Both the position numbers and the translations under genes were made by a program. A DNA stretch of 32,000 nt from Methylorubrum extorquens (GTDB taxonomy: Bacteria; Pseudomonadota; Alphaproteobacteria; Rhizobiales; Beijerinckiaceae): positions 1,260,001-1,292,000 of the forward strand of contig LT962688.1 in the NCBI GenBank assembly GCA_900234795.1. Reading direction: 5' to 3'. The notes beneath the pieces were generated by a model. It had not been told where the DNA came from and searched no databases. It saw only the letters and a program-made list of their open reading frames with translations. Positions 368 to 28,651 of this stretch are shown in pieces. Positions within the stretch are counted from its first letter, which is position 1. Every line of letters starts with the position of its first letter.

Positions 368-529
368 GGCCGGTGATGGGGCCGGGTGCCGGCCGTTGGC
401 GGAGCCTTCGGGCGCGCGCCGGACCGTGGGGTCCGGGCGCATGTCCGGTGTCTATAGCGATCCCGGCCCCGACTTTCCAGGGATGGGGACGACGAGAGCC
501 GGTTCAAAGCCCGGATCGTGGTCTTGAGC

Positions 530-568
530 GGCCGGCAAATCCTGCCGAGAGGCCGGCAGATCCCGCCG
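530..568. promoter_or_regulatory. Two tandem ftr-like dyads, candidate FlbD enhancer sites upstream of fliK
   Basis: GGCCGGCAAATCCTGCCG (530-547) and GGCCGGCAGATCCCGCCG (551-568) are separated by AGA. The first contains CGGCA-N5-TGCCG. The same GGCAA-N4-TGCCG core recurs at 3385-3403 in front of fliF. The sites lie about 75-110 nt upstream of the sigma54-type element at 642-656. Confidence 0.4.
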
Positions 569-613
569 GGCCGGCGCGAGGCGGCCTTCACCGCCAAAAT
601 GTTTCTTGTTTTC

Positions 614-626
614 TATCAGCAATTTG
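614..626 (+). promoter_or_regulatory. IHF-like site between the ftr-like dyads and the sigma54 promoter
   Basis: TATCAGCAATTTG against the IHF consensus WATCAA-N4-TTR (one mismatch). It sits in the only AT-rich patch of this intergenic region. Confidence 0.3.
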
Positions 627-641
627 CCCGTCATCGGCAGA

Positions 642-656
642 TGGTGCGCGGTTTGC
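642..656 (+). promoter_or_regulatory. Sigma54 (RpoN) -24/-12 promoter for fliK-flgD
   Basis: TGGTGCGCGGTTTGC matches TGGCAC-N5-TTGC, with invariant GG (643-644) and GC (655-656) at exact GG-N10-GC spacing. A strong SD (GAAGGAGAGGGA, 682-693) and an in-frame GTG at 701 follow. Confidence 0.6.
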
Positions 657-700
657 TCTGGTCTCCTGCGGCTTCGGCGGCGAAGGAGAGGGACGGCATC

Positions 701-2086
701 GTGGTTTCGCGCGCAGATCTGGCGGAGGCGTTTTTCAGGCAGACCCTGCGGCCCGCCTCGTCCGCGGCGCGGGGGGCCGAGGGCACGGCGCGGTTCAGCC
801 TGGAAGCCGCGCAGCAGCGGCCGGCGGCACCGGCCCGGCCCGCATCCCGCCGCGACGACACCGCCTCCGCCCGCAGCGATGCCATCAGGGCGGATAGGAT
901 GGACGCGGCGAGAACAGAGAACGCCAAGATCGGGGCTGCCAGAACGGGGACGGCCAAAAGCGACAGGGCGAAAAGTGACAAGGCCGAGAGCGGGCCGTCC
1001 GGGGCTTTGCAGGAAAGCCGCGCCCAGGCTGCCTCGGCCCGCAGCAAGCCGCTCGCGGCAAGGACGGGACGCGACGGCGCGGAGGCCGCCTCCGCACGAG
1101 GTCCGGGCGCCGCCGCGAAGTCCGCCGCGCAGCGGCCGGAACGCCCGGCCGCCGACGGCGCGGAACCGGCGCAGGAAGCCGCTGCGGAAGAGGTCGCCGC
1201 CAAAGAAGCCGGTGCCGCGGTGGTATCCGAGGACGAGACAGGAGAGCGGGACGAGACCGATCCCGCATCGCCGGAGGCCGCCGCTCCCGCCGCCCTCTTC
1301 GCCCCGCCCCCCGCTCCGGCGCCAGCGCCGACGAATGCGGCGGGTGTGTCCGCGGGCGAGGGCGGGCTCGACGCGAATCAGTCCGTGACGGGCCTGCCCG
1401 GGGAGGCGACGGCAACCGGTCACGCCGCGAAGGCCGGCACGGGGGATGCCCCCGTCTCCGCCGCCGCGGGCACGGCCGGCTTCGAGGCGGCCCTCACCGA
1501 AGCAGGGGCGCCGACCGCCTCCCCCGTTCCGGCTCCCGCCGGTCCCGCAACCGCGCTCACCCCGCCCGGCGGCGTCGGCGCCGCGCAGGGCCCACAGGCA
1601 GCCCAGGCCGCGGACGCCGCGGCGGCGGCACCCCAGCCGGCGACGCCGCCGATCCCGCTGGGCGCCGTGCCGATGACGATCGGGCTGCGCTCGCTCTCAG
1701 GCATGAACCGCTTCGCGATCCGCCTCGACCCGGTCGAGCTCGGCCGCATCGACGTGTCGCTCGATCTCGACAAGGCGGGCGGCAAGGCGCGGGCGCATCT
1801 CGTGGTGGACCGTCCCGAGACCCTGGCCCTGCTCCAGCGCGATGCGGGCTCCCTGCAGCAGGCCCTGGCGCAGGCGGGCTTCGACGTCGGCGCCGAGGCC
1901 GGCGGGGGCGGGATCGATCTGTCCCTGCGCGGCGAGACCGGATCCCAGAGCGGCCGGGACGGCGAATCCGCGTCCCATGACCGCTCCGACGGCGGGCCGG
2001 GCGGACGGGACGCCCGCCCCTCCCCGCTCGACGCCATTCCCCTGCGGCAGCTCCGTGCCGTCGGCAATCTCGACATCCGGATTTAG
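701..2086 (+). CDS. fliK: Flagellar hook-length control protein FliK
   Basis: ORF 518-2086. The C-terminal part (IPLGAVPMTIGLRSLSGMNRFAIRLDPVELGRIDVSLDLDKAGGKARAHLVVDRPETLALLQRDAGSLQQALAQAGF) is a typical FliK C-terminal domain, and the N-terminal two thirds are Ala/Pro-rich low complexity. It lies directly upstream of flgD. Start placed at GTG 701 because the sigma54 promoter at 642-656 lies inside the longer ORF. The start is uncertain. Confidence 0.8.
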   Translation: MVSRADLAEAFFRQTLRPASSAARGAEGTARFSLEAAQQRPAAPARPASRRDDTASARSDAIRADRMDAARTENAKIGAARTGTAKSDRAKSDKAESGPSGALQESRAQAASARSKPLAARTGRDGAEAASARGPGAAAKSAAQRPERPAADGAEPAQEAAAEEVAAKEAGAAVVSEDETGERDETDPASPEAAAPAALFAPPPAPAPAPTNAAGVSAGEGGLDANQSVTGLPGEATATGHAAKAGTGDAPVSAAAGTAGFEAALTEAGAPTASPVPAPAGPATALTPPGGVGAAQGPQAAQAADAAAAAPQPATPPIPLGAVPMTIGLRSLSGMNRFAIRLDPVELGRIDVSLDLDKAGGKARAHLVVDRPETLALLQRDAGSLQQALAQAGFDVGAEAGGGGIDLSLRGETGSQSGRDGESASHDRSDGGPGGRDARPSPLDAIPLRQLRAVGNLDIRI

Positions 2087-5119: not shown

Positions 5120-6175
5120 GTGTCCGCGGGCGTAAACTTCAACGCTGCCATGGAGAGCCTCGATGCGTCGAAGGCGTTCGCCGAGATGCCGGGCCCGCAG
5201 CGCGCCGCCGCCCTCCTGCTGCTGCTCGGCGAGGAGGAGGGTGCGCCGATCTGGCAGCGCCTCGACGAGGACGAGATCAAGCTCGTCAGCCACGCCATGG
5301 TGCAGCTCGGCTCGCTGGAGGCCGCCACCGTCGAGCGGCTGATCGTCGATTTCGTCTCGCGGCTATCCTCGGGCGGCGGCATCACCTCGAACTTCGAGCG
5401 CACCGAGTCGCTGCTGCTCAAGATCTTCCCGCCCGAGCAGGTCTCGTCGATCATGGCGGAGATCAAGGGCGCCTCCGGAAAGCGCGTCTGGGCGAGCCTG
5501 ACCCAGATCGACCCCGAGATCCTCGCGAACTTCCTGCGCAACGAGTACCCGCAGACGGTCGCCGTCGTGCTGTCGAAGGTGCGGGCCGACTACGCCGCCA
5601 AGGTGCTCACCATCCTGCCGGAAGAGTTCGCCATCGACGTGCTCAACCGGATGCTGCGCATGGAGACCGTCCAGAAGGAGGCCCTGCGCCACATCGAGGA
5701 GACGCTGCGCACCGAGTTCGTCTCGACCATCGCCCAGACCACGCGGCGCGACGCGCACGAACTCATGGCCGAGGTCTTCAACGCCTTCGACCGGCAGACC
5801 GAGACCCGCTTCCTCGCGGCGATCGACCAGGCCAACCGCGGCTCGGCCAAGAAGATCCGCCAGCTCATGTTCACCTTCGAGGATCTCCTGAAGCTCGATC
5901 CGGGCTCGGTCCAGACCCTGATGCGCAAGGTCGACAACGACACCCTGTGCCGCGCGCTCAAGGGCGCCGACGAGCGGGTGCGCGCCTTCTTCATGCGCCA
6001 GATGTCGACCCGCGCGGCCAAGAACCTCACCGACGAGATGGGCTCGATGGGCCCGATCCGCCTCAAGGAGGTCGATGAGGCGCAGGCCAAGATGACGGAA
6101 CTGGCCAAGGAGCTGGCCGAGAAGGGCGAGATCATGATCGCCAAGAACGGCGGCGAGGAGGAGTTGGTCTATTGA
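5120..6175 (+). CDS. fliG: Flagellar motor switch protein FliG
   Basis: 351 aa with a GTG start preceded by GAGGAGGG. Contains QRAAALLLLLGEEEGAPIWQRLDEDEIKLVSHAM and the C-terminal MFTFEDLLKLD...RAAKNLTDEM region typical of FliG. Confidence 0.95.
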   Translation: MSAGVNFNAAMESLDASKAFAEMPGPQRAAALLLLLGEEEGAPIWQRLDEDEIKLVSHAMVQLGSLEAATVERLIVDFVSRLSSGGGITSNFERTESLLLKIFPPEQVSSIMAEIKGASGKRVWASLTQIDPEILANFLRNEYPQTVAVVLSKVRADYAAKVLTILPEEFAIDVLNRMLRMETVQKEALRHIEETLRTEFVSTIAQTTRRDAHELMAEVFNAFDRQTETRFLAAIDQANRGSAKKIRQLMFTFEDLLKLDPGSVQTLMRKVDNDTLCRALKGADERVRAFFMRQMSTRAAKNLTDEMGSMGPIRLKEVDEAQAKMTELAKELAEKGEIMIAKNGGEEELVY

Positions 6176-8710: not shown

Positions 8711-9691
8711 CTACGAAGTCAGCACGGTCGGAGCGGTGGCGGCAGGCAGCACCGCCACACCGCGCATCCGCGCGAACATTCTCTCGCTCCAAGGCCCCAG
8801 TTGCCCGGCGAGGTGGAAGGAAATCGCAGCGACGAGCAAGCCCGCGACGCAGTCGCAGGCGTAGTGAGCACCATGTGTCACGGCCGAAACCGTCATCACG
8901 GCGTTCAGGAGGAGCACGACCCAGCGCAAGCGCTGCAACGGCCAGATCGCAGCCGTCACAAGGTAGGCCACAGCGCAGTGAAGTGACGGAAAGGAGATCA
9001 GCGGCCCGACTTCGTTCAGTGGCAGGGCGCGCATCGTGCCGTCCCGCAACGCATGCAGATCCACGAGCGGCGTCGCGCCCTGGAAGAGCAGATGCGCCTC
9101 GTCCGGCCCGAGGAGGCCTGCCGCGCCCTCTGCCGGCAACACGGCGCTGATGATGGTCGTCATCGTCACGCAGAGGATGAAGGACGATACGAAACGATCG
9201 GAGCGACGCACTTCGCCGAGAGCCGCGAGAAGGACGGGCGTAAGGCCGAGTTGCAGGAAGAATGTCTCGTAGGCTCGACTCAGGATCTCCATCAAACCCC
9301 GTCGCTCGACCATGGAGGTCTGGAACGTCAGCCAATCGAAGCCGAAGGCGCGATCAATTCCGATGAACCAGTCGTCGCGCAGCGGCAGGCCGAAGGCTTG
9401 AACGCCGTAGGCGAGAGCGCTGGTCGTGGGCAGCTGTATGATCAAGACGGCCAGCAGAGCCAGTACCGCGCCGAAGCGACGGCGAGAGATCGGGCGGGTG
9501 TTGAAGTAGACAGCTCCAGCCAGCATCGAGAGCGGAGCAAGCCATTGCACAATGGAGGTGTGAAGCCAGACGTCCGTCAGACTCTGAACGCACATGGCAG
9601 CCGCGACCGACAGGAGCAGCAGGCCGTAGGTCGATGGTGACGGGCCGGCGGCATCCGCCGCCCTGGTCGGAAAGGTGCGCAGGAAAGGCAT
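8711..9691 (-). CDS. PAP2-superfamily (PAP2_3 / Aur1-IPC-synthase-like) polytopic membrane protein
   Basis: ORF 8711-9754, with the likely start at ATG 9691 (MPFLRTF). It has multiple hydrophobic segments and the PAP2 C2/C3-type motifs SFPSLH and HGAHYACDCVAG. There are noticeably more A/T-ending codons than in neighbouring genes. Confidence 0.7.
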   Translation of the reverse strand: MPFLRTFPTRAADAAGPSPSTYGLLLLSVAAAMCVQSLTDVWLHTSIVQWLAPLSMLAGAVYFNTRPISRRRFGAVLALLAVLIIQLPTTSALAYGVQAFGLPLRDDWFIGIDRAFGFDWLTFQTSMVERRGLMEILSRAYETFFLQLGLTPVLLAALGEVRRSDRFVSSFILCVTMTTIISAVLPAEGAAGLLGPDEAHLLFQGATPLVDLHALRDGTMRALPLNEVGPLISFPSLHCAVAYLVTAAIWPLQRLRWVVLLLNAVMTVSAVTHGAHYACDCVAGLLVAAISFHLAGQLGPWSERMFARMRGVAVLPAATAPTVLTS

Positions 9692-9884
9692 GGAACGCTC
9701 GCTCGCAGGAGGCCGAAGCTTCCCGCATGAGCTGTTTCCATCAAATGAAGACAACCTGTCCGTTTATGACGTTTCCGAAGCCCGCCCCTCATCCGGAGGG
9801 ACCGCCTCACCGTGTCCGTGTGCGACACGCGGGAGACGTGGCTTGCCGTCTTGCCCGCGACTGCCGGCGAGCAGCCCGCTCCCC

Positions 9885-12015: not shown

Positions 12016-12405
12016 GTGAGGACGGCCAAGGCGGGCTTCACGGACCTCGTGCTGGTCTGCCGCAAATGCGCCAAGCGCCAGGGCGTGGACCGCAAGCAGC
12101 TCGGCCGTGCCGTCAAGCGGGCGTTCCGGCAGGGCGCGCGCGAAGCCGCCGGCAAGGGCGCCGGCAAGGTCCGGGTGCTGGAGACGGGCTGTCTCGGGCC
12201 CTGCCCCAAGCGGATGCTGACGCTGGCCACACCGGACTCCCTGGCGCGCCGCCGCGTCATCCTCGTCGATCCGGCGCTCGATGCCATCGGCCCCGCGGCC
12301 CTCACCCTCGCCGCAGTGGTACCGCCCCCGGCCGCACCGGCCGTGGTGTTCACAGCGTCCAAGACGCGCCCGGCAGCCCCGGCCGATGGAGCCGGCAATG
12401 GTTGA
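12016..12405 (+). CDS. Putative thioredoxin-like [2Fe-2S] ferredoxin-domain protein
   Basis: Only the last ~130 codons of the 713-aa ORF 10264-12405 are kept, because the rest is antisense to the kpsE-like gene. The Cys pattern VCRKCAKRQG...ETGCLGPCPK resembles the CxxC...CLGxC motif of thioredoxin-like ferredoxins. GC3-rich codon usage. Start uncertain (GTG 12016 or GTG 11926). Confidence 0.45.
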   Translation: MRTAKAGFTDLVLVCRKCAKRQGVDRKQLGRAVKRAFRQGAREAAGKGAGKVRVLETGCLGPCPKRMLTLATPDSLARRRVILVDPALDAIGPAALTLAAVVPPPAAPAVVFTASKTRPAAPADGAGNG

Positions 12406-13558
12406 GGCACCCGCTCGCCGTGGGGATCAGCGCGAAAACCCCTCCGCGGACCTACCCGCCGAACAGCCGCGACCGGGGCGTCTCCTGCGCGGGCTGCTGC
12501 GCCGGTTGCCGCTCGTCGGCACCCTGGTCGGGCTGGGGCTGGGCGTCTGGCTCGTCGCCACCAACGACCTTGCGGCGATCGGTGCGGCCTTCGGGCGGAT
12601 CGGTCCGGCGGGGCTGGCCGCCATCGTCGGGGTGCGGGCCGTCATCGTGTTGCTGTGTGGGCTCGCCTGGGCGCGGGTGCTGCGCGGCATCCCGCCGTCG
12701 GGACGTCACGCCCATCCCGCGAAGGCCGCCGAGCCCCCTGTCGAGACCGGCGCCTTCGTGATCCTGCGCTTCGTGCGCGAGGGCGTGAACGTGCTCCTGC
12801 CGGTCGCCTCGGTGGGCGGCGAGGTGGTGGGCGGCCGCCTACTGACCTTCTGGGGCGTCGCGGGCAGCCTCGCGGCCGCCTCGCTGCTGGCCGACATGCT
12901 GATCCAGGTCGCGACGCAGGTGGCCTTCACCGGGCTCGGTGCCGGCCTGCTCTGGCGGCTGCCGGGGGAGGCCGCCGCCGTGCTCGCGTGGTGGACTACG
13001 CAGGCCGCCGTGGTGGCGGTGGCGGCGGTCGCCGCCTTCTTCGCCTTGCAGACGCTCGGCGCGGCGCGGGGGCTGGAGCGGCGCCTCGCCGCCCTCGGGC
13101 GCCGCTTCCTGCGCTCGGCGGCCCCGGAGGGGGCGAAACCGGAGGCAAGCGCGGCAGGCATCCTCTCCGTGCAGGAGGCCCTCGATGTGGTCTGGGCCCG
13201 CGAGCGCCGCGGGCCGATCGCTCAATCGGTCGCCCTGCACGCCGTGGCCTGGGGGCTCGGCGCGGCCGAGATCTGGATCGTGCTCGCCTGCATCGGAGTC
13301 GAGGTGAGCCTGACCGAGGTGTTGGTGCTGGAATCGCTCTCGCAGGCGATCAAGTCGGCGGCCTTCGCCGTCCCGAGCGGGCTCGGCGTGCAGGAGGGCG
13401 GCTTCGTCGTGGTGGGCGCCCTGTTCGGGCTCGATGCGGGCACCGCCATCGCCCTGTCGCTCGCCAAGCGCGTACCCGACGTGGCGCTGGGCCTGCCCTC
13501 GCTGATCGTCTGGCAGACCCTGGAAGCCAAGCGGGCGCAGGTGCTGCCGCCACGCTGA
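12398..13558 (+). CDS. Flippase-like / LPG-synthase-TM (UPF0104, HpnL-like) integral membrane protein
   Basis: ORF 12281-13558. ATG 12398 overlaps the upstream stop (ATGGTTGA). The protein has roughly eight hydrophobic segments. Motifs LRFVREGVNVLLPVASVGGEVVGGRLL and PSGLGVQEGGFVV resemble the PF03706-type family. Confidence 0.6.
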   Translation: MVEAPARRGDQRENPSADLPAEQPRPGRLLRGLLRRLPLVGTLVGLGLGVWLVATNDLAAIGAAFGRIGPAGLAAIVGVRAVIVLLCGLAWARVLRGIPPSGRHAHPAKAAEPPVETGAFVILRFVREGVNVLLPVASVGGEVVGGRLLTFWGVAGSLAAASLLADMLIQVATQVAFTGLGAGLLWRLPGEAAAVLAWWTTQAAVVAVAAVAAFFALQTLGAARGLERRLAALGRRFLRSAAPEGAKPEASAAGILSVQEALDVVWARERRGPIAQSVALHAVAWGLGAAEIWIVLACIGVEVSLTEVLVLESLSQAIKSAAFAVPSGLGVQEGGFVVVGALFGLDAGTAIALSLAKRVPDVALGLPSLIVWQTLEAKRAQVLPPR

Positions 13559-23255: not shown

Positions 23256-24158
23256 TCAGGCCCGCTGCAGCCGGGTCGCTTCCGTCGGCGAGCGCCCGAT
23301 CATCTTGCGGAAGGTCCGCCCCATCCGCCGCGCATCGGGAAAGCCCGCGCGCAGGGCCGCCTCGCTCAAGGAGACCGTGCCGGAGCGGATCAGCGACTGC
23401 GCCAGCGTCACGCGTTCGCGCAACACATATTGATAGGGCGTCACGCCGAAGGTGCCCTTGAAGGCACGTACGAAATAGCCCTCGCTGAGGCCCGCCACCG
23501 CCGCCATCTCCCCGAGCGACAGGGGCGCATCGATCCGCTCGGCGACGAGGTCGCGCACCCGCCGCGCCTGCCGGGCGGTGAGCGCCGCGCTCTTGCGGGA
23601 GGGCGGGCTCGACAGGGCGCCGGAGGCGCGCAGCACCGCGAGCGCCACGCTGTCGACCAGAAGCGCGTCCGCGGCGCTGTCGTGGCCGCTGGCCGCCTGC
23701 CCCAGGGCGGCCAGGAGGTGGGAGACGGTCATCCGCTCGGTGAGATCGCAGGTGATCGAATCGATCCGGAGATGCGAGAGCGGCGCCTCGATCATCCGCT
23801 CCACCGCGGCGGGCATGAAGGCGAGATAGCGCCCGCGGCATGGCCCGCTCCAGAGCGTGCGGCCGGCATAGCCGGGCCCGCGCAGGACGAAGGCCTCCCC
23901 GGTGCGCTCGTCGCAGGGCTCATTGCCGGTCGGGCCGTCGCTGAAGGTGAGCGTGGTCCGGCTCAGGCCGTACCAGCCGCCGTGCCACGTGCCGACGAGA
24001 AGGCCACCGACCCGGTGCGTGCTGAAACCCGCCGTCTCGTAGGCGAAATCGAGGAAGGCGATGCCGTCGAGGCCGCTGGCGGGGATCTGGCCGAAAATTC
24101 GGTCCGGCGGGGCGCTGAGATCGCCCTGCACCGAGGCGTTGACGAACGGAACGCTCAT
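23256..24158 (-). CDS. AraC-family transcriptional regulator
   Basis: 300 aa. The C-terminal double HTH reads LSLGEMAAVAGLSEGYFVRAFKGTFGVTPYQYVLRERVTLAQSLI...SLSEAALRAGFPDARRMGRTFRKMIGRSP. I do not recognise the N-terminal ligand/dimerisation domain. Confidence 0.85.
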   Translation of the reverse strand: MSVPFVNASVQGDLSAPPDRIFGQIPASGLDGIAFLDFAYETAGFSTHRVGGLLVGTWHGGWYGLSRTTLTFSDGPTGNEPCDERTGEAFVLRGPGYAGRTLWSGPCRGRYLAFMPAAVERMIEAPLSHLRIDSITCDLTERMTVSHLLAALGQAASGHDSAADALLVDSVALAVLRASGALSSPPSRKSAALTARQARRVRDLVAERIDAPLSLGEMAAVAGLSEGYFVRAFKGTFGVTPYQYVLRERVTLAQSLIRSGTVSLSEAALRAGFPDARRMGRTFRKMIGRSPTEATRLQRA

Positions 24159-24209
24159 CGGCCGCGTCGTTCTCCCTCTCGCTGACGCGCCTCCGGGGCG
24201 CGCTTCGAA

Positions 24210-24234
24210 TTCTTGTTGCCGTGTTCTTGTTGCC
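24210..24234. promoter_or_regulatory. Exact 11-nt direct repeat upstream of the AraC-family gene (candidate operator)
   Basis: TTCTTGTTGCC (24210-24220), GTG, TTCTTGTTGCC (24224-24234). It lies 52-76 nt upstream of the araC-family ATG (24158) and downstream of the peptide-gene terminator. Confidence 0.4.
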
Positions 24235-24448
24235 TGGGCGGTCTTCGCCGCCCTTTGGCCGCCAATTGACGGCCTTGCGCCGGAGCCGAGGCGACGGCGC
24301 CGTCACGGCGACGCTTCGATCCGAACGGATGAGAACGACCCGCCTACGCGGTCGTTCCCTCTGCTGTTCCCTCGGCCCGCGGGGTCGATCGTGCCGGCGG
24401 CGGAGGCGCCCGTCGAGGGCGCCCCCGGCCGTCGCGTCCCGCACGAGG

Positions 24449-24483
24449 CCCACGGAAGCGGTGGGGGCGGCCGCTTCCGTGGG
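24449..24483 (-). terminator. GC-rich hairpin downstream of the peptide gene
   Basis: CCCACGGAAGCGG (24449-24461) pairs perfectly with CCGCTTCCGTGGG (24471-24483), loop 9 nt. It lies 22 nt past the TAA stop (24505-24507, minus strand). No U-tract. Confidence 0.5.
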
Positions 24484-24504
24484 AGGACGTGTCAGGAAAT
24501 CGGA

Positions 24505-24717
24505 TTACTTCCCGAGCAGGCCGCCGAGCAGGCCGCCCACCGCGCCGAGCACGGTGTCGAGCGTGCCGCCGACGAGGCCGCCGACTTGATCGACGACACC
24601 GGACACGGCCCCGAGTTCGCTGCTGAGATCGAGATCGAGGCCGAGAGACAGACCGCCGCCGACCTGATCCAGCTCCGCAGCGTTCAGCTCGCGGACCGTA
24701 TCAATGTTCTGCTGCAT
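24505..24717 (-). CDS. Double-glycine-leader secreted peptide precursor (bacteriocin/microcin-like), 70 aa
   Basis: MQQNIDTVRELNAAELDQVGGG|LSLGLDLDLSSELGAVSGVVDQVGGLVGGTLDTVLGAVGGLLGGLLGK. The leader fits the consensus L(-12)xxxE(-8)L(-7)xxV(-4)xGG, with V at -15. AAGGAG lies 6 nt before the ATG. It has its own terminator hairpin and is divergent from a C39-ABC exporter operon 476 nt away. Confidence 0.75.
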   Translation of the reverse strand: MQQNIDTVRELNAAELDQVGGGLSLGLDLDLSSELGAVSGVVDQVGGLVGGTLDTVLGAVGGLLGGLLGK

Positions 24718-25193
24718 GGTTTTCTCCTTTGTCCGAATGGTACTGGAAGAACGTTCTGTATTTCTGTCTTCCTGTGGAATAAGAGCGCCGGTGTGCGTCG
24801 CTCTGCTGGATAAGGTACGGATATTATTCCGGCAGGCAACCCGGGCTGCGTTATACGGTCCGGGGTGATCGGCTCAGGACCTCTCGGATGGACAGATCTT
24901 GCTCTCTCACAGCACGACCAACGGTCGTATCCGGACTCCGCGCGCCGCCCCCGGCCCTACGCGTGCGCCGCTCCCCTTCCCTTCGGCCGACCCGCGCGAT
25001 CGACCCTCGCGGGACGGCTGTGGCGGGACGGGCCGCCGCCCGCGCGGGGGACAAAAATTGACGTGCCGGCCGGGGAGCGGGCCGCTCGGGCCGCCATCAC
25101 CGCTAAGAAACTGAAGCTGTTGCGGATTACGGCCTGCATGCGTCAGAACAACGCACCTGATCGTTCGGTCCCTACCCCGGAGGAGGCTTCCCG

Positions 25194-26483
25194 GTGAACG
25201 CGCCCCTGTTCCGTCGCGAGGTCGTGGAGGCACGGCGAAGCGCCTGGCTCGGCGAGGCCCAGGTGATCCAGCCCCTGGCGATCCGCGTCGTGGTCGGCCT
25301 GTGCCTCGCCTTCGCCGTCCTCGTTGGCGTCTACGCCTGGCTCGGCAGCTACACCCGCCGGGTCCATGCCGACGGCCTGCTCGCGCCCGATATCGGCCTC
25401 ATCACCGTGGCGAGCCCGCTGGCGGGGCGGGTCAGCGCGTCGGGCGCCAAGGAGGGGGACCGGGTCGAGCGCGGCCAGCTCCTCTTCACCATCGACCTCG
25501 ACGCGGTCTCGGCGAGCGGCCCGACCCAGGAGCGGGTGATCGCCCAGCTCGGCCGTCAGCGCGAGAGCGTGGAGCGCCAGCGCGCCGCCCGCGCGGCCAT
25601 GGCCACCGCCGAGAAAGAGGGCTTGAGGGAGCAGGTCGCCAACCTGGAGGCGCAGCGCGCCAGGATCGAGGAGCAGCTCGCACTCCAGGAAAAGCTGGTG
25701 CCGCCGCTCAAATCCCGCGCCGACGAACTCGCCGACCTCGTGACGCGGGGTTTTGCCCGCGCGGCCGACTTCCAGAGCCAGAACTACCTCTATCTCCAGG
25801 CCAGCTCGCAACTCGCGCAGTTCCGCCAGGGCGGGCTTCAAGTCGAGGGCAAGCTCGGCGATCTGCGCGCCAAACTCGCCACCTTCGATGAGACCCTGGC
25901 GCGGGATCTCGCCGAACTCGACCGCACCGCCGCGCAGCTCGAACAGCAGCGGGCCGAGAGCGAGGCGCGCCGCGCCATCGAGGTGCGCGCGCCGGAGCGC
26001 GGCATCCTCACCTCGATCCGGGCGCAGGCCGGGCAGACCGTGGCGGCGGGGGCAAACCTGCTCACCCTGCTGCCGAGCGAGGGCCGGCTGCAGGCCAACC
26101 TGTTCGTCGATTCCTCGGCGATCGGCTTCATCGAGCCCGGCGCCAGCGTGATGCTGCGCTACGCCGCCTTCCCGTTCCAGCGCTTCGGCCTGCACCGGGG
26201 CACGGTGACGGAGGTGACCCGCGCGCCGCTCGAAGGCGACGCCCGGCCCGAGGCGGCGCGGGACACGGCCAAAAATGCGGGGAACGGGGGCGTCTACCGC
26301 ATCATCGTGCGGCCGGATGCCGACAGCGTGACGGCCTATGGCGAGCAACGCCGGCTGGAGGCCGGAATGCGGGTCGAGGCCGACATCGCGCTCGAGAAGC
26401 GCCCGCTCTACCGCTGGCTCCTCGACCCCCTCTACCACGTCAAGCGCAGCGTCGATCTCGTCACCGAAGGAGGGACACGTTGA
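25194..26483 (+). CDS. HlyD-family membrane fusion protein (CvaA-like bacteriocin secretion adaptor)
   Basis: 429 aa. The GTG start is preceded by GGAGGAGG (7 nt). The N-terminus MNAPLFRREVVEARRSAWLGEAQVIQP is followed by one TM, a long coiled-coil region, and a C-terminal beta domain (YRIIVRPD...AGMRVEADIALEKRPLYRWLLDPL), as in CvaA/HlyD proteins. Confidence 0.85.
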   Translation: MNAPLFRREVVEARRSAWLGEAQVIQPLAIRVVVGLCLAFAVLVGVYAWLGSYTRRVHADGLLAPDIGLITVASPLAGRVSASGAKEGDRVERGQLLFTIDLDAVSASGPTQERVIAQLGRQRESVERQRAARAAMATAEKEGLREQVANLEAQRARIEEQLALQEKLVPPLKSRADELADLVTRGFARAADFQSQNYLYLQASSQLAQFRQGGLQVEGKLGDLRAKLATFDETLARDLAELDRTAAQLEQQRAESEARRAIEVRAPERGILTSIRAQAGQTVAAGANLLTLLPSEGRLQANLFVDSSAIGFIEPGASVMLRYAAFPFQRFGLHRGTVTEVTRAPLEGDARPEAARDTAKNAGNGGVYRIIVRPDADSVTAYGEQRRLEAGMRVEADIALEKRPLYRWLLDPLYHVKRSVDLVTEGGTR

Positions 26484-28651
26484 GCCTGCTGTCGGATCTT
26501 CAGTTCGGTTTCCGGCGGCGCCTGCCGGTCGTGCTCCAGGCGGAGGCCGCCGAGTGCGGCATGGCCTGCCTCGCCATGGTGCTGGGCTACCATGGCCGCC
26601 GGGTCGATCTCGGAAGCTTGCGCGCGCGCCACGCCCTCTCGCTGAAGGGCATGACGCTGCGAAACCTCATGGACCTCTCCGGCACCCTGGGGCTCTCGAC
26701 GCGGGCGCTGCGGGTGGAACTGCCCGATCTCGGCCGCCTGCGCCTGCCCTGCATCCTGCATTGGGGGCTCAACCACTTCGTCGTGCTGGCGCGGGTCGGA
26801 CGCCGGGAGATCGTGATCCACGATCCCGCCCGCGGGCGCCGCACCTTGAGCCTCGCGGAAGCCTCGCGCGAATTCACCGGCGTCGCCCTGGAGGTGGCGC
26901 CGAACCAGAGCTTCGTGCGCGAGCGGGCGGCGCGCGGCCTCGCACTCTCCGACCTGTTCCGGGGCATGGCCGGCATCCGCGCGGCGATGATGCAGATCCT
27001 GGCCCTGTCACTCGGAATCGAACTCGTCGCGATCCTGATGCCGATCGCCTCGCAGATCGTCATCGACGAGGTCATCGTGAACGGCGATCTCGACCTGCTG
27101 CTCGTCGTGGCGCTCGGCCTCGCCCTTCTGCTGGTGCTGCAACTCGGCCTCGGCGTCGCCCGGAGTTGGGCGATCATGCTCACGGGCACGAAGCTGAACT
27201 ACCAGTGGTCCGGCTCGCTGTTCGACCACCTCTCCCGGCTGCCGCTCGACTATTTCCAGAAGCGGCATGTGGGCGACGTGATCTCGCGCTTCGGCACCCT
27301 CGCGACGATCCAGAAGGGCATCACCACCGACCTCGTCCAGGCCCTGCTCGACGGGCTGATGTCGGTCGGCATGCTGATCATGCTGTTCCTCTACGGCGGC
27401 TGGCTCGCCCTGGTGGCCATCGCCGCCACCGCGCTCAACGCCGGCTTACGGATCGCCGCCTACAAGGCCTATCGCGAGGGCACCGAGGAGGCGATCGTCG
27501 CGGAGGCGCGCCAGCAGAGCCACTTCATCGAGACCGTGCGCGGCATGGCGAGCGTCAAGCTCCTGAACCTGCGCGAGCGCCGCCGCGGCACCTGGATGAA
27601 CCAGTTCGTCCAGGCGCTGAACGCCCGGCTGCGGCTGCAGCGGCTCGACCTCGTGTTCGGGCGCGGCAACGAGTTCCTGTTCGGCGCCGACCGGCTGATC
27701 CTGCTGGTGCTCGGTGCCCGCGCCGTGATCGACCAGTCGATGACGCTCGGCATGCTGGTCGCCTTCCTCGCCTATCGCGACCAGTTCTCGACCCGCATCG
27801 GCAACCTGATCCAGTCGGGCTTCCAGCTGCGGATGCTCAACGTGCAGACCGACCGCCTCTCGGACATCGTCATGACCGAGCCGGAGGAGGCCGCAGCCCC
27901 CATGCCCGCCGCGGCGGCGCCGATCGCGGCCCCCGCCCTCCTTCCCTCCGGCGAGCGTCCGCCGGTGCGTGGCGCGGGCTTGCGCGCCGTCGGCCTGTCC
28001 CTGCGCTACGGCGACGACGAGCCCTGGGTGTTCCGCAATCTCGGCCTGGCGGTGCCGCCGGGCGAAAGCCTCGCCATCGCCGGCCCCTCGGGCTGCGGCA
28101 AGAGTTCGGTGATGAAGATCCTGATGGGTCTGCTGCCGCCCTCCGAAGGCGCGGTGCTGGTCGATGGCCGCGACATCCGCTCCGGAGGGTTGGCGGCCTA
28201 CCGCGCCCGCATCGCCGGGGTGATGCAGGATGACGGGTTGTTCGCCGGCTCGATCGCCGAGAACATCGCCTGTTTCGACGAGCGGCCCGATCCCGGCTGG
28301 ATCCGCGAATGCGCCGCCCGCGCGGCGATCCTCGACGACATCACCCGCACGCCGATGGGCTTCGAGACCCTGGTCGGCGACATGGGTTCGACCCTCTCGG
28401 GCGGCCAGCGCCAGCGGGTGATCCTCGCCCGCGCCCTCTACCGGCGACCGGAGATTCTGTTTCTAGATGAGGCGACGAGCGCGCTGGACGAGCCGACCGA
28501 GGCGGTCATCGCCGCCGCGCTGCGCGACCTGAAGATGACGCGGGTCATCGTCGCCCACCGTCCGGCGACCGTGGCCCATGCCGACCTGCGCTACGATTTT
28601 TCCGCGGAGGCACCGCGGGTCGAGCCTCAGGCGACGGAGACCGCCGGTTGA
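26480..28651 (+). CDS. Peptidase-C39-containing ABC transporter (PCAT; CvaB/LagD/ComA-like)
   Basis: 723 aa. The TTG start overlaps the hlyD-like stop (TTGA). The C39 domain has Gln/Cys (LQAEAAECGMACLAMVLGYHG), His (GLNHFVVL) and Asp (VIHDPARG). It is followed by a 6-TM domain and an NBD with Walker A GPSGCGKSS, signature LSGGQRQRV and Walker B ILFLDEATSALD. The catalytic Cys precedes the first ATG, so a non-ATG start is required. Confidence 0.9.
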   Translation: MSLLSDLQFGFRRRLPVVLQAEAAECGMACLAMVLGYHGRRVDLGSLRARHALSLKGMTLRNLMDLSGTLGLSTRALRVELPDLGRLRLPCILHWGLNHFVVLARVGRREIVIHDPARGRRTLSLAEASREFTGVALEVAPNQSFVRERAARGLALSDLFRGMAGIRAAMMQILALSLGIELVAILMPIASQIVIDEVIVNGDLDLLLVVALGLALLLVLQLGLGVARSWAIMLTGTKLNYQWSGSLFDHLSRLPLDYFQKRHVGDVISRFGTLATIQKGITTDLVQALLDGLMSVGMLIMLFLYGGWLALVAIAATALNAGLRIAAYKAYREGTEEAIVAEARQQSHFIETVRGMASVKLLNLRERRRGTWMNQFVQALNARLRLQRLDLVFGRGNEFLFGADRLILLVLGARAVIDQSMTLGMLVAFLAYRDQFSTRIGNLIQSGFQLRMLNVQTDRLSDIVMTEPEEAAAPMPAAAAPIAAPALLPSGERPPVRGAGLRAVGLSLRYGDDEPWVFRNLGLAVPPGESLAIAGPSGCGKSSVMKILMGLLPPSEGAVLVDGRDIRSGGLAAYRARIAGVMQDDGLFAGSIAENIACFDERPDPGWIRECAARAAILDDITRTPMGFETLVGDMGSTLSGGQRQRVILARALYRRPEILFLDEATSALDEPTEAVIAAALRDLKMTRVIVAHRPATVAHADLRYDFSAEAPRVEPQATETAG

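What the first reader, a model, noticed from the sequence alone, without database searches (positions are those of the whole stretch)
24505..28651. Double-glycine-leader peptide divergently paired with an HlyD/C39-ABC (PCAT) exporter: candidate microcin-like secreted-peptide system in a high-GC alphaproteobacterium
Seen in sequence: a 70-aa ORF with a strong SD has a 22-aa leader, MQQNIDTVRELNAAELDQVGGG. With cleavage after the last GG, this places V, L, L, V at -4, -7, -12, -15 and E at -8, which is the classic double-glycine leader pattern. 476 nt away and divergent lie a CvaA-like HlyD protein and a 723-aa ABC transporter, translationally coupled (TTGA). The transporter's N-terminal C39 domain keeps the catalytic Gln/Cys (QAEAAECG), His (NHFVVL) and Asp (IHDP), so it looks like an active peptidase rather than a degenerate C39-like domain. 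Established knowledge: PCATs such as CvaB, LagD and ComA cleave GG leaders during export. Inference: the peptide is the cargo. The class II microcins I know as characterised are enterobacterial, and I do not recognise this core peptide as any described family. This is the most likely undescribed system in the window.
Basis: partly seen in the sequence, partly recalled or inferred. Interest (0 to 1): 0.85.

Follow-up and report, generated by a model that had tools for sequence, protein, structure and literature searches.

The report
Microcin-like secreted peptide with exporter
A small, conserved, stress-induced gene in the methanol-using bacterium Methylorubrum extorquens encodes a glycine-rich peptide with a classic export tag, next to the two-protein pump that should cut off the tag and secrete it; this is a new family of a well-known kind of system, and whether the peptide is a weapon or a building material is untested.

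Summary
Window 24505-24717(-) encodes a 70-aa peptide with a textbook double-glycine leader. It lies 476 nt from, and divergent to, a CvaA-like HlyD gene and a PCAT whose C39 catalytic residues (Gln20, Cys26, His99, Asp115) are all intact.

The gene is real. It is under purifying selection, has a mapped primary TSS in strain DM4 (gene METDI5067), and is induced about 8-fold on dichloromethane together with the adjacent AraC regulator.

Peptide homologs occur in 38 Hyphomicrobiales species. HlyD and PCAT are adjacent in 37 of the 37 assessable loci, despite different surrounding genes. In six species the peptide gene(s) lie directly upstream of the exporter genes on the same strand. The cargo-exporter inference is therefore strongly supported.

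The "microcin" (antibacterial) label is untested. No immunity gene is found in cis, the gene belongs to the M. extorquens core genome, and the peptide is better conserved than its exporter.

The kind is already known, including in Alphaproteobacteria: the Caulobacter CdzAB/CdzCD glycine-zipper system. This peptide shares only the leader with CdzC/D.

Verdict: an undescribed family and a new member of a known kind. Interest is moderate (0.4), not 0.85.

The parts
24834..24839 (-). -35 box (TTGCCT) of the peptide gene's own promoter
   Evidence: Reported for METDI5067 in the DM4 TSS study (PMC9320726 Table S2). The box is conserved as (C/G)TTGA(A/T)G or TTGCCT in 27 lineages. DM4 and the window differ at only 2 of 130 upstream bases.
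24812..24817 (-). -10 box (TACCTT)
   Evidence: PMC9320726 Table S2. Its position was read from the sequence.
24782..24804 (-). Mapped transcription start (A at 24804; alternative call at 24798) and a 5'-terminal mRNA stem-loop, AGAGCG(24804-24799)...CGCTCT(24787-24782)
   Evidence: A primary TSS lies 87 nt (Table S2) or 81 nt (Table S1) upstream of METDI5067 in dRNA-seq, and was mapped onto the window. A hairpin sits at the same place in 19/19 lineages, using at least 6 different complementary arm sequences. There is no Rfam match.
24724..24728 (-). Shine-Dalgarno sequence AGGAG, 6 nt before the ATG
   Evidence: Read from the sequence. GGAGAA is invariant in the 6-genus alignment.
24652..24717 (-). 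Double-glycine leader, residues 1-22 (MQQNIDTVRELNAAELDQVGGG); predicted cleavage is after G22
   Evidence: Eight leader positions are invariant, including G21 and G22. Thirteen of 28 family members weakly hit Pfam Bacteriocin_IIc, best E=4.6e-6. hhalign aligns the leader to the CdzC leader at E=5.5e-4. AF2 predicts a helix at residues 13-21.
24505..24651 (-). Core peptide, residues 23-70 (48 aa, LSLGLDLDLSSELGAVSGVVDQVGGLVGGTLDTVLGAVGGLLGGLLGK), plus the stop codon. It is anionic and Gly/Leu/Val-rich, with glycine-zipper (GxxxGxxxG) and two GAV motifs
   Evidence: D30, E34, L35, A37, S39 and G40 are invariant. Synonymous:nonsynonymous codon differences are 3984:3456 in frame, against 760:6506 and 423:6743 in the shifted frames. 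AF2 predicts one long helix at residues 32-69 with pLDDT about 70-77.
24449..24483 (-). Terminator-like stem-loop with a 13-bp perfect stem (CCCACGGAAGCGG...CCGCTTCCGTGGG), 21 nt after the stop codon and without a U-tract
   Evidence: Read from the sequence and folded. Comparable strong hairpins follow the peptide gene in nearly all of the other lineages folded, some with U-tracts; the one without (L049) is followed directly by a second peptide gene.
25194..26483 (+). CvaA-like HlyD-family membrane-fusion (periplasmic adaptor) protein, 429 aa, GTG start preceded by GGAGGAGG
   Evidence: Pfam HlyD_3 at 4e-15 and HlyD_D23 at 7.5e-12. NCBIfam type_I_hlyD at 1.2e-39, below its cut-off. One homolog is named 'Colicin V secretion protein CvaA' in M. 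bullatum. The SD was checked.
26480..28651 (+). PCAT, 723 aa: C39 peptidase (residues 15-143, nt 26522-26908), ABC transmembrane domain (residues 173-438) and ATPase domain (residues 519-705). Its start overlaps the hlyD stop (TTGA)
   Evidence: Full-length matches to PCAT1 4RY2 (1e-75) and ComA 8HF4 (3e-62) are.
23256..24158 (-). AraC-family regulator (METDI5068 in DM4), downstream of the peptide gene on the same strand with its own promoter; likely regulator of the module
   Evidence: Pfam HTH_18 and HTH_AraC. It is adjacent in 22 of 38 species loci. It has its own TSSs 148-154 nt upstream, detected only on dichloromethane. Its log2fc of +3.2 on DCM parallels the peptide's +3.0.

Best explanation
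This is a three-gene type I secretion module with a frequently associated AraC regulator.

The 70-aa pre-peptide is made from its own promoter as a short mRNA of about 350 nt. The mRNA starts with a stabilising stem-loop and ends at a terminator hairpin.

The amphipathic leader helix (RELNAAELDQV-GGG) docks on the C39 domain of the PCAT dimer. Cys26, His99 and Asp115 cleave after Gly22. The 48-aa core is then pumped out through PCAT, the CvaA-like adaptor and a TolC-type outer-membrane channel encoded elsewhere.

The released peptide is unmodified, anionic, very hydrophobic and rich in glycine zippers. The most likely action is that it inserts into, or aggregates on, membranes and cell surfaces, as an unmodified bacteriocin of the class II microcin / Caulobacter Cdz type. 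Production rises under solvent or acid stress through the neighbouring AraC regulator.

Shown here: gene reality, transcription and induction, leader and catalytic motifs, and obligate gene linkage.
Inferred: the cleavage site, export, the TolC partner, membrane action, antibacterial activity and AraC control.

My confidence in the export mechanism is about 0.9. My confidence in the antibacterial role is about 0.45-0.5.
For: Linkage: HlyD and PCAT are adjacent in 37/37 assessable species loci, and in 5/5 distant loci whose other neighbours differ. In six species the peptide gene(s) lie directly upstream of hlyD-pcat on the same strand. Three of four more distant exporter homologs also have GG-leader peptides next to them.

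Leader: the consensus residues are invariant. There is a weak Pfam Bacteriocin_IIc signal. The leader is similar to the CdzC leader.

Active exporter: the catalytic residues Gln20, Cys26, His99 and Asp115 and all ATPase motifs are present, with full-length similarity to PCAT1 and ComA.

Real gene: codon-level purifying selection; a mapped primary TSS with -35 and -10 boxes; log2fc +3.0 on dichloromethane, alongside AraC at +3.2.

Membrane-active character: GRAVY 0.99, glycine zippers and GAV motifs, and a long predicted helix. Precedents are CdzC/D (PMC5380434) and MccAB1 (PMC13188072). Nine of 38 loci carry two peptides, as two-peptide bacteriocin systems do.
Against: No immunity-like gene (small and hydrophobic) is conserved next to the peptide in any lineage. 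The rest of both intergenic regions is not conserved even within Methylorubrum.

[quoted passage not shown] It sits in conserved synteny beside argD/argF across Methylorubrum. It is not strain-variable or flanked by mobile elements as most bacteriocins are.

The peptide is 65-70% identical between Methylorubrum and Methylopila henanensis or Chelatococcus, while the PCAT is 53% and HlyD 38-39% identical. Bacteriocins usually evolve faster than their exporters.

No TolC homolog is in the window. The core shows no homology to any characterised bacteriocin. No activity, cleavage or export data exist. The AF2 model has low confidence (pLDDT 62.9).
Confidence: 0.55

Rival explanations
1. The export mechanism is the same, but the peptide is not a weapon. 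It would be a conserved, self-directed extracellular or envelope peptide. One option is a self-assembling (amyloid or glycine-zipper) matrix or surface component, like cyanobacterial EbfG or the biofilm role of A. baumannii MccAB1. Another is a stress-protective, membrane-associated peptide made when the envelope is challenged by dichloromethane, acid or chloride.
For: No immunity gene is found in cis. The gene is core-genome and vertically inherited in conserved synteny. The peptide is more conserved than its exporter. It is induced 8-fold by dichloromethane growth and is also transcribed on methanol. It has two GAV motifs and glycine zippers like those tied to amyloid formation in MccAB1 and CdzC. 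The alternating LSLGLDLDLS segment fits an amphipathic beta-strand (read from the sequence).
Against: No biofilm or aggregation data exist for this peptide. MccAB1 and CdzC are both also toxic, so aggregation does not exclude killing. An immunity gene can be small, unannotated or located elsewhere, as the 'hidden' McaI was. The two-peptide loci in relatives resemble bacteriocin systems.
Confidence: 0.3
2. The exported peptide is a cell-cell signal (pheromone) sensed by the population, analogous to the Gram-positive ComC and BlpC peptides that PCATs export.
For: PCATs export pheromones in streptococci; ComA is among the structural matches. The peptide sequence is strongly conserved. A regulator gene is adjacent and co-induced.
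Against: At 48 residues, extremely hydrophobic and Gly-rich, the product is unlike known pheromones. No histidine kinase or response regulator is conserved in the neighbourhood. AraC-type regulators are cytoplasmic and bind small ligands (established knowledge), and no import system is linked. The AraC gene is absent from 16 of 38 loci.
Confidence: 0.08
3. The ORF is the precursor of a modified RiPP, for example a lanthipeptide as one UniRef auto-name suggests. The modification enzymes would be encoded elsewhere, and the PCAT would act only as the final protease and exporter.
For: UniRef names the Chelatococcus homolog 'Type A2 lantipeptide'. Fifteen of 28 members give very weak hits to Pfam L_biotic_typeA, best E=0.024. 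The C39 domain is closest to LahT, a lanthipeptide-associated protease. The core contains Ser and Thr.
Against: The core has no Cys, so no lanthionine ring is possible. No LanM, LanB, LanC, YcaO or other modification gene is conserved in any of the sampled neighbourhoods; one locus, L056, has a radical-SAM gene beside the PCAT. The Pfam hits are driven by the shared leader type.
Confidence: 0.04
4. The pairing is incidental: the exporter's real substrate is something else and the small ORF is an unrelated or non-functional gene.
For: The leader regex alone is expected about 0.3 times per shuffled window. The exporter genes were not reported as co-induced with the peptide on dichloromethane.
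Against: Co-occurrence is 37/37 across genera, and the reverse test is positive. Six species place the peptide gene(s) directly upstream of the exporter on the same strand. There is strong coding selection. No other GG-leader ORF is in the window.
Confidence: 0.02

Closest known systems
Caulobacter crescentus Cdz system (CdzA/CdzB type I secretion, CdzC/CdzD glycine-zipper two-peptide bacteriocin, CdzI immunity; Garcia-Bayona et al. 2017, PMC5380434)
   Same: It is also alphaproteobacterial and chromosomal. Small unmodified peptides (84 and 86 aa) carry a leader ending in G[G/A/S]; the CdzC leader NVRELSFEEVDEVAGA compares with TVRELNAAELDQVGGG here. The cores are dominated by Gly and small hydrophobic residues with GxxxGxxxG zippers. 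An ABC transporter plus HlyD adaptor is adjacent, and TolC is encoded elsewhere. Expression is condition-induced: stationary phase for Cdz, dichloromethane here. This peptide meets the four descriptive 'Cdz-like' criteria, the last of them only weakly.
   Different: The cores are not detectably homologous; hhalign aligns only 16-18 leader columns. Methylobacterium is absent from their 239-protein list. There is no CdzI-like three-TM immunity gene. M. extorquens has one peptide, not two. The core here is Leu/Val/Asp-rich and anionic rather than Ala/Gly/Val-rich. Most Cdz-like loci were strain-variable and flanked by transposases, whereas this one is core-genome.
Enterobacterial class II microcins, e.g. 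microcin V (CvaC with CvaA, CvaB, TolC and Cvi)
   Same: The peptide is under 10 kDa with a double-glycine leader (the MccV leader, recalled from memory, is LTLNELDSVSGG). The exporter is a C39-ABC protein plus a CvaA-like adaptor. The HlyD C-terminus resembles CvaA (from memory), and a homolog is auto-named CvaA. The core is Gly-rich and anionic.
   Different: There is no adjacent immunity gene. It has neither the Cys/disulfide of class IIa nor the Ser-rich siderophore-attachment tail of class IIb. Only one of 28 members gives an insignificant Pfam MccV hit, E=0.24. It is chromosomal and core-genome, not on a plasmid or island. The published large surveys I checked covered Enterobacteriaceae or Enterobacterales and Pantoea, Erwinia and Xanthomonas, not Alphaproteobacteria.
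Acinetobacter baumannii MccAB1 (Telford et al. 2026, PMC13188072)
   Same: It is a PCAT-exported class II microcin whose GAV motifs drive amyloid self-assembly and biofilm formation as well as killing. The peptide here has two GAV motifs (ELGAVSG and LGAVGG) plus true glycine zippers.
   Different: MccAB1 has a (hidden) immunity protein and defined receptors. Sequence relatedness was not tested. No assembly or biofilm data exist here.
Synechococcus elongatus EbfG1-4 with the PteB PCAT (Parnasa et al. 2016, cited in PMC13188072)
   Same: These are small GG-leader proteins in a Gram-negative bacterium, exported by a PCAT for a non-antibiotic, biofilm-enabling role. They are a precedent for the rival explanation.
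   Different: Different phylum. Sequences were not compared here. I know this system only through the citing paper and from memory.
Solved PCATs and C39 domains: LahT (6MPZ), PCAT1 (4RY2), ComA (8HF4, 3K8U)
   Same: The domain order is C39, TMD, NBD. The Gln/Cys/His/Asp residues align. The C39 domain matches LahT at E=1.8e-23, and the full-length protein matches PCAT1 at 1e-75.
   Different: Those are from Gram-positive bacteria, with no HlyD or TolC partners. This PCAT scores below the NCBIfam cut-offs for every equivalog; the best is NHLM_micro_ABC1 at 472 bits against a cut-off of 853.

Membership tests
PCAT (peptidase-containing ABC transporter, C39 type) with an MFP partner | N-terminal Peptidase_C39 domain fused to an ABC transmembrane domain and an ATPase domain | tested here: met
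   Pfam PF03412 at 2e-34, PF00664 at 5e-34 and PF00005 at 4e-30, in that order. Full-length alignment to PCAT1 and ComA.
PCAT (peptidase-containing ABC transporter, C39 type) with an MFP partner | Catalytic Cys/His/Asp plus the oxyanion Gln are retained, making it an active protease rather than a C39-like domain as in HlyB | tested here: met
   Gln20, Cys26, His99 and Asp115 align with LahT, ComA and PCAT1. Enzymatic activity itself was not tested.
PCAT (peptidase-containing ABC transporter, C39 type) with an MFP partner | Adjacent HlyD-family adaptor (Gram-negative type I secretion) | tested here: met
   The HlyD gene overlaps the PCAT start by 4 nt. The pair is conserved in 37/37 loci.
PCAT (peptidase-containing ABC transporter, C39 type) with an MFP partner | TolC-type outer-membrane partner | not testable with these tools
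   None is present in the 32-kb window or within 10 kb either side in the sister genomes. The whole genome was not available. Cdz and MccV also use an unlinked TolC.
Class II microcin | Gene-encoded peptide under 10 kDa from a Gram-negative bacterium with an N-terminal double-glycine leader | tested here: met
   70-aa precursor and 4.46-kDa core. The leader consensus is invariant.
Class II microcin | Dedicated PCAT plus MFP export genes in the cluster | tested here: met
Class II microcin | Cognate immunity protein encoded next to the microcin (small, inner-membrane) | tested here: not met
   No conserved hydrophobic small ORF was found in any lineage. The flanking intergenic DNA is not conserved within Methylorubrum. 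An immunity gene located elsewhere cannot be excluded.
Class II microcin | Antibacterial activity against related bacteria | not testable with these tools
   No experimental data were found.
Class II microcin | Subclass hallmarks: IIa has disulfide Cys; IIb has a C-terminal Ser-rich tail plus siderophore-modification genes | tested here: not met
   The core has no Cys, ends in ...GGLLGK and is not Ser-rich. No modification genes are nearby.
Cdz-like glycine-zipper bacteriocins (criteria of Garcia-Bayona et al. 2017) | Length 60-151 residues, with a leader ending in G[G/A/S] | tested here: met
   70 aa, with the leader ending ...VGGG. The criteria were read.
Cdz-like glycine-zipper bacteriocins (criteria of Garcia-Bayona et al. 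2017) | [quoted passage not shown] | tested here: met
   In core numbering, G36-G40-G44 and G39-G43-G47 lie between D32 and K48, and G25-G29-T33 lies between D21 and D32 (sequence). The C-terminal tail is only one Lys, so that part is met weakly.
Cdz-like glycine-zipper bacteriocins (criteria of Garcia-Bayona et al. 2017) | Sequence homology of the mature region to CdzC or CdzD | tested here: not met
   hhalign aligns only the leader: 18 columns at E=5.5e-4 for CdzC and 16 columns at E=0.011 for CdzD. The family is absent from their 239-protein list.
Cdz-like glycine-zipper bacteriocins (criteria of Garcia-Bayona et al. 2017) | Contact-dependent killing, surface aggregates, and CdzI-type immunity | not testable with these tools
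   This needs experiments. No CdzI-like multi-TM gene was seen nearby.
Lanthipeptide or other modified RiPP precursor | Cys plus Ser/Thr in the core, and linked modification enzymes | tested here: not met
   The core has no Cys. No modification enzyme is conserved in any sampled neighbourhood. The UniRef 'Type A2 lantipeptide' name reflects leader similarity.

The most novel reading that the evidence does not exclude
This is not a bacteriocin. It would be a vertically inherited, immunity-free, housekeeping-type secreted glycine-zipper peptide of Methylobacteriaceae and related methylotrophic Hyphomicrobiales. The cell would export it through a dedicated PCAT system to build or protect its own envelope or matrix, as a functional amyloid or surface layer, under solvent, acid or chloride stress, controlled by the adjacent AraC regulator. 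That would make the microcin export machinery a general route for structural or protective peptides in Alphaproteobacteria.
Probability: 0.3. Interest if true: 0.6.

Novelty: new member of a known kind. Interest (0 to 1): 0.4.

Why it matters
M. extorquens is the model methylotroph and a common leaf coloniser, yet this gene has stayed a "conserved protein of unknown function" (METDI5067) even though RNA-seq flagged it as one of the few core genes induced by dichloromethane.

Recognising it as the cargo of a dedicated peptidase-exporter turns an anonymous stress-induced gene into something testable by mass spectrometry, competition assays and biofilm assays.

It also extends GG-leader/PCAT peptide systems to a second, well-defined alphaproteobacterial family. 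The combination of no immunity gene, core-genome status and a slowly evolving cargo bears on a current question: do microcin-type peptides have roles beyond killing?

It does not reveal a new kind of mechanism.

Tried and rejected
1. Met2624, a roughly 300-nt "sRNA specific to Methylobacteriaceae" (bioRxiv 2022.01.24.477521), looked as if it might be this peptide's mRNA. Its probe has no match in the window and its AM1 coordinates differ. Rejected.

2. Immunity-gene search. I checked small ORFs around the peptide in five distant loci, DNA conservation of both intergenic regions, and the window's own small ORFs, including a 54-aa antisense ORF at 24704-24868(+) and a 60-aa ORF at 24957-25139(-). 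None is conserved or TM-like.

3. The conserved upstream block is not an upstream ORF: indels between Methylopila and Chelatococcus break the frame.

4. Promoter ideas. An EcfG-type GGAAC-N16-17-CGTT has the wrong spacing (14 nt), and a sigma-54 site lacks the -12 element (both read by eye). The simple sigma-70 scan found nothing. The published TSS and boxes settled the question.

5. Rfam on 24000-25400 gave no hit.

6. Pfam and NCBIfam on the peptide gave no hit at normal thresholds.

7. The exact-sequence cluster look-up said the peptide is "not in the collection", although the contig index finds it in 277 blocks. This yielded no names.

8. The MAFFT alignment of the hairpin (A3) was not in structural register, so I counted stems by folding each sequence instead of using count of structure pairs.

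9. The AF2 model has pLDDT 62.9. I did not run fold search because low-confidence models give meaningless matches.

10. A 2026 preprint mentions an antiSMASH "bacteriocin (RiPPs)" region in AM1 without giving a location. It cannot be tied to this locus.

11. One badly built literature query returned only noise.

Full report
**What is there**

The window is Methylorubrum (Methylobacterium) extorquens chromosome. The exact 70-aa peptide is encoded in at least 277 indexed blocks, including strains DM4 (FP103042) and CM4 (CP001298). The window is 99.98% identical to CP021054.1 over 5.5 kb.

All three ORFs sit at the stated coordinates:
- the peptide at 24505-24717(-)
- a 429-aa HlyD-family protein at 25194-26483(+)
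- a 723-aa ABC protein at 26480-28651(+), whose TTG start overlaps the hlyD stop as TTGA

The two starts are 476 nt apart and divergent. Pfam confirms HlyD_3/HlyD_D23 for the adaptor, and Peptidase_C39 + ABC_membrane + ABC_tran for the transporter.

The C39 domain keeps Gln20, Cys26, His99 and Asp115. These align residue for residue with LahT (6MPZ, E=1.8e-23), ComA and PCAT1. The ATPase motifs are intact.

The factual observation is therefore confirmed in every detail.

The leader pattern by itself is not statistically rare. One ORF in the window matches a leader regex, against a mean of 0.3 in shuffled windows. The weight has to come from other evidence.

**Is the small ORF a real gene?**

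Yes, on three independent lines.

(i) Coding selection. Across 20 orthologs, synonymous:nonsynonymous codon differences are 3984:3456 in the annotated frame, but 760:6506 and 423:6743 in the two shifted frames. Third-position changes dominate.

(ii) Transcription. [quoted passage not shown] Differential RNA-seq mapped a primary TSS 81-87 nt upstream, with -35 TTGCCT and -10 TACCTT, seen on both dichloromethane and methanol (PMC9320726). DM4 and the window differ at only 2 of the 130 upstream bases, so the TSS maps to window 24804, with an alternative call at 24798.

(iii) Regulation. RNA-seq gives log2fc +3.0 (p=0.002) on dichloromethane versus methanol and classes the gene as M. extorquens core genome. 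The adjacent AraC gene METDI5068 is at +3.2 (PMC5585157). The CM4 ortholog Mchl_4440 does not respond to chloromethane (-0.7, not significant). The exporter genes are not in those lists.

**Anatomy of the transcription unit**

Within Methylorubrum, only window 24505-24846 is conserved between hlyD and AraC. That block runs from the -35 box to the stop codon.

Immediately at the TSS there is a stem-loop, AGAGCG...CGCTCT. It recurs at the same position in 19 of 19 lineages with at least six different but complementary arm sequences. I read it as a 5'-terminal mRNA hairpin. Such hairpins stabilise mRNAs (established knowledge for ompA-type leaders). It has no Rfam match.

A strong SD follows (AGGAG, 6 nt from the ATG). 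A 13-bp perfect stem-loop lies 21 nt after the stop (24449-24483). Comparable hairpins follow the gene in nearly all of the other lineages folded. The predicted monocistronic mRNA is about 350 nt.

**Is the peptide the exporter's cargo?**

A word-indexed search found 48 homologs. An exhaustive profile search of 1.84 billion representatives found only 23 at E<=1e-3. This is a small, sharply defined family.

Scanning one genome per species found it in 38 species, all Hyphomicrobiales:
- about nine Methylorubrum species
- about twenty Methylobacterium species
- Methylopila, Chenggangzhangella, Hansschlegelia and Chelatococcus
- Hyphomicrobium and Beijerinckiaceae MAGs

HlyD and PCAT are adjacent in 37 of these loci. 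The one exception sits 622 nt from a contig end.

In five distant loci the remaining neighbours are entirely different, so the conserved unit is exactly these three genes.

In six Methylobacterium-group species the order is peptide(s), then hlyD, then pcat, all on one strand. Nine loci carry two GG-leader peptides. Some pairs are paralogs. Others include a second core type, QSELSVSIGGLNELIDTVHSIP....

The reverse test also holds. All named HlyD homologs at 62% identity or more come from the same taxa. Of four more distant homologs (50-62%), three have GG-leader peptides with the same leader type next to them, and two of those have recognisably related cores.

The cargo inference is about as strong as comparative genomics can make it.

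**What kind of peptide is it?**

The predicted mature product has these properties:
- 48 aa, 4463 Da, pI about 4, GRAVY about 1.0
- 27% Gly, 27% Leu, 15% Val
- no Cys, Pro, aromatic or basic residues apart from the C-terminal Lys

It has three recognisable segments:
- an alternating LSLGLDLDLS segment
- a nearly invariant D-x-S-x-EL-x-AVSG-xx-DQVGGLVGG block
- a C-terminal run of GxxxG and glycine-zipper motifs, with two GAV motifs

AlphaFold, at low confidence (pLDDT 62.9), predicts a short leader helix at residues 13-21 and one long helix at 32-69.

There are no significant matches to any bacteriocin core. The weak Pfam Bacteriocin_IIc and L_biotic_typeA hits come from the leader.

**Comparison with known systems**

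The kind is well known: an unmodified GG-leader peptide exported by a PCAT/MFP/TolC type I system.

The class II microcin surveys I could read are enterobacterial or gammaproteobacterial. There, CdzA/B export the glycine-zipper proteins CdzC/D, which aggregate on the cell surface and kill on contact, and CdzI provides immunity (PMC5380434).

The peptide here satisfies that paper's descriptive "Cdz-like" criteria, the C-terminal one only weakly, and its leader is strikingly like CdzC's. But profile comparison aligns only the leader. Methylobacterium is also not among their 239 hits. So it works like Cdz or a class II microcin, but it is not a sequence-family member of either.

Two further precedents show that PCAT cargos of this composition can have structural roles. 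They are A. baumannii MccAB1, where GAV motifs give amyloid and biofilm formation as well as killing, and Synechococcus EbfG (PMC13188072).

**What argues against a simple "microcin"**

(a) No immunity-like gene is conserved in cis in any lineage, and the flanking DNA is not conserved.

(b) The gene is core-genome and syntenic beside argD/argF throughout Methylorubrum. Most Cdz-like loci, by contrast, are strain-variable and flanked by transposases.

(c) Between Methylorubrum and Methylopila henanensis or Chelatococcus the peptide is 65-70% identical, while the PCAT is 53% and HlyD 38-39% identical. The cargo evolves more slowly than its pump, which suggests a conserved interaction partner or a conserved assembly. 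Low sequence complexity may inflate the peptide figure.

These points keep a non-antibiotic role at roughly 0.3 probability.

**Mechanism I commit to**

The pre-peptide is transcribed from its own AraC-associated, stress-responsive promoter. Its leader helix is bound by the C39 domain and cut after Gly22. The core is exported through PCAT, HlyD and an unlinked TolC. Outside the cell, the glycine-zipper peptide acts on membranes or surfaces, most likely as a Cdz/microcin-type toxin. The alternative is a self-assembling envelope or matrix component.

Export is inferred with high confidence, about 0.9. The biological role is inferred with modest confidence.

**Novelty and score**

The family is undescribed in the literature available to me. 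It is annotated only as hypothetical, with occasional automatic "Bacteriocin" labels.

It is a new member of a known kind, not a new kind. It has some atypical traits that make it a reasonable experimental target in a model organism. Interest is 0.4.

Noticed in passing
window 24782-24804 (-); same position in L011-L053: A stem-loop begins exactly at the experimentally mapped TSS of the peptide mRNA. It is present in 19/19 lineages with at least six different complementary arm pairs (AGAGCG/CGCTCT, GAAGCGC/GCGCTTC, CTGAGGCGA/TCGCCTCAG, GAAAGCA/TGCTTTC and others). It has no Rfam family. It is probably a stabilising 5' hairpin, but an operator palindrome is not excluded.
   Followed up: partly
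L035 5143-5361, L036 5143-5361, L040 5130-5360, L042 5390-5620: Some Methylobacterium species (brachythecii, sp. C25, thuringiense, jeotgali) carry a second GG-leader peptide between the exporter and the family peptide. It has the same leader but an unrelated core (QSELSVSIGGLNELIDTVHSIPAGAV...GGLLGS...). This may be a two-peptide system. M. extorquens lacks it.
   Followed up: no
P0056 (1059 aa) and P0065 (555 aa), versus peptide residues 26-41: The conserved N-terminal core motif (GLGLN[LV]D[LA]SxEL.AV) resembles the repeat unit GxGL[NS][LV]D[GA]S[NG]xL of large repeat proteins. One of them matches 15 times, with E=6e-12 overall. From memory, that unit looks like a tail-fibre or beta-helix type repeat. 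This might hint at a beta-structured, self-associating segment, or it may be only a chance short-motif resemblance.
   Followed up: no
L033, L034, L037, L039, L044 versus L016-L032: The peptide family is served by two quite divergent exporter clades. In Methylorubrum, Methylobacterium, Methylopila capsulata and Hyphomicrobium, HlyD is 62% identical or more. In Methylopila henanensis, Chelatococcus, Chenggangzhangella and Hansschlegelia, HlyD is only 36-39% and PCAT 52-53% identical. Peptides of the second clade use A-G-G at the cleavage site and end in ...GALPxVS(GGVS).
   Followed up: partly
window 23256-24158 (-), with its own promoter roughly 148-154 nt upstream (about 24306-24312): The AraC-family gene has its own TSSs, detected only on dichloromethane, and is co-induced (log2fc 3.2) with the peptide gene (3.0). 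It is adjacent in 22 of 38 species loci, in three different arrangements. Its ligand-binding domain gives only a faint DUF7317 hit.
   Followed up: partly
loci L016-L053 (taxonomy): Nearly all genera carrying the family are methylotrophs: Methylorubrum, Methylobacterium, Methylopila, Hansschlegelia, Chenggangzhangella methanolivorans and Hyphomicrobium. Chelatococcus is the exception. This could simply reflect phylogeny within Hyphomicrobiales.
   Followed up: no
L055 3050-3253 and 3738-3983; L056 7421-9040: In one metagenomic relative, two GG-leader peptides with Pro/Ala/Thr-rich cores sit beside a two-component system and a PCAT that is split into two genes. In another, a B12-binding radical-SAM gene (DUF4070) lies beside the PCAT. 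Both are single-locus observations.
   Followed up: no
window 518-2086, 5120-6175, 8711-9754, 12281-13558: The rest of the window holds flagellar genes (a FliK-like hook-length protein and FliG), a PAP2-family phosphatase and a lysyl-phosphatidylglycerol-synthase-like membrane protein. Several long ORFs have no Pfam hit and are probably high-GC artefacts. None is obviously related to the module, and there is no TolC.
   Followed up: partly
tool behaviour: The exact-sequence cluster look-up reported that the 70-aa peptide is not in the collection, while the contig index lists it in 277 blocks. Names and accessions for the exact protein could therefore not be retrieved.
   Followed up: no
bioRxiv 10.64898/2026.05.05.723055: [quoted passage not shown] It may or may not be this locus.
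   Followed up: no
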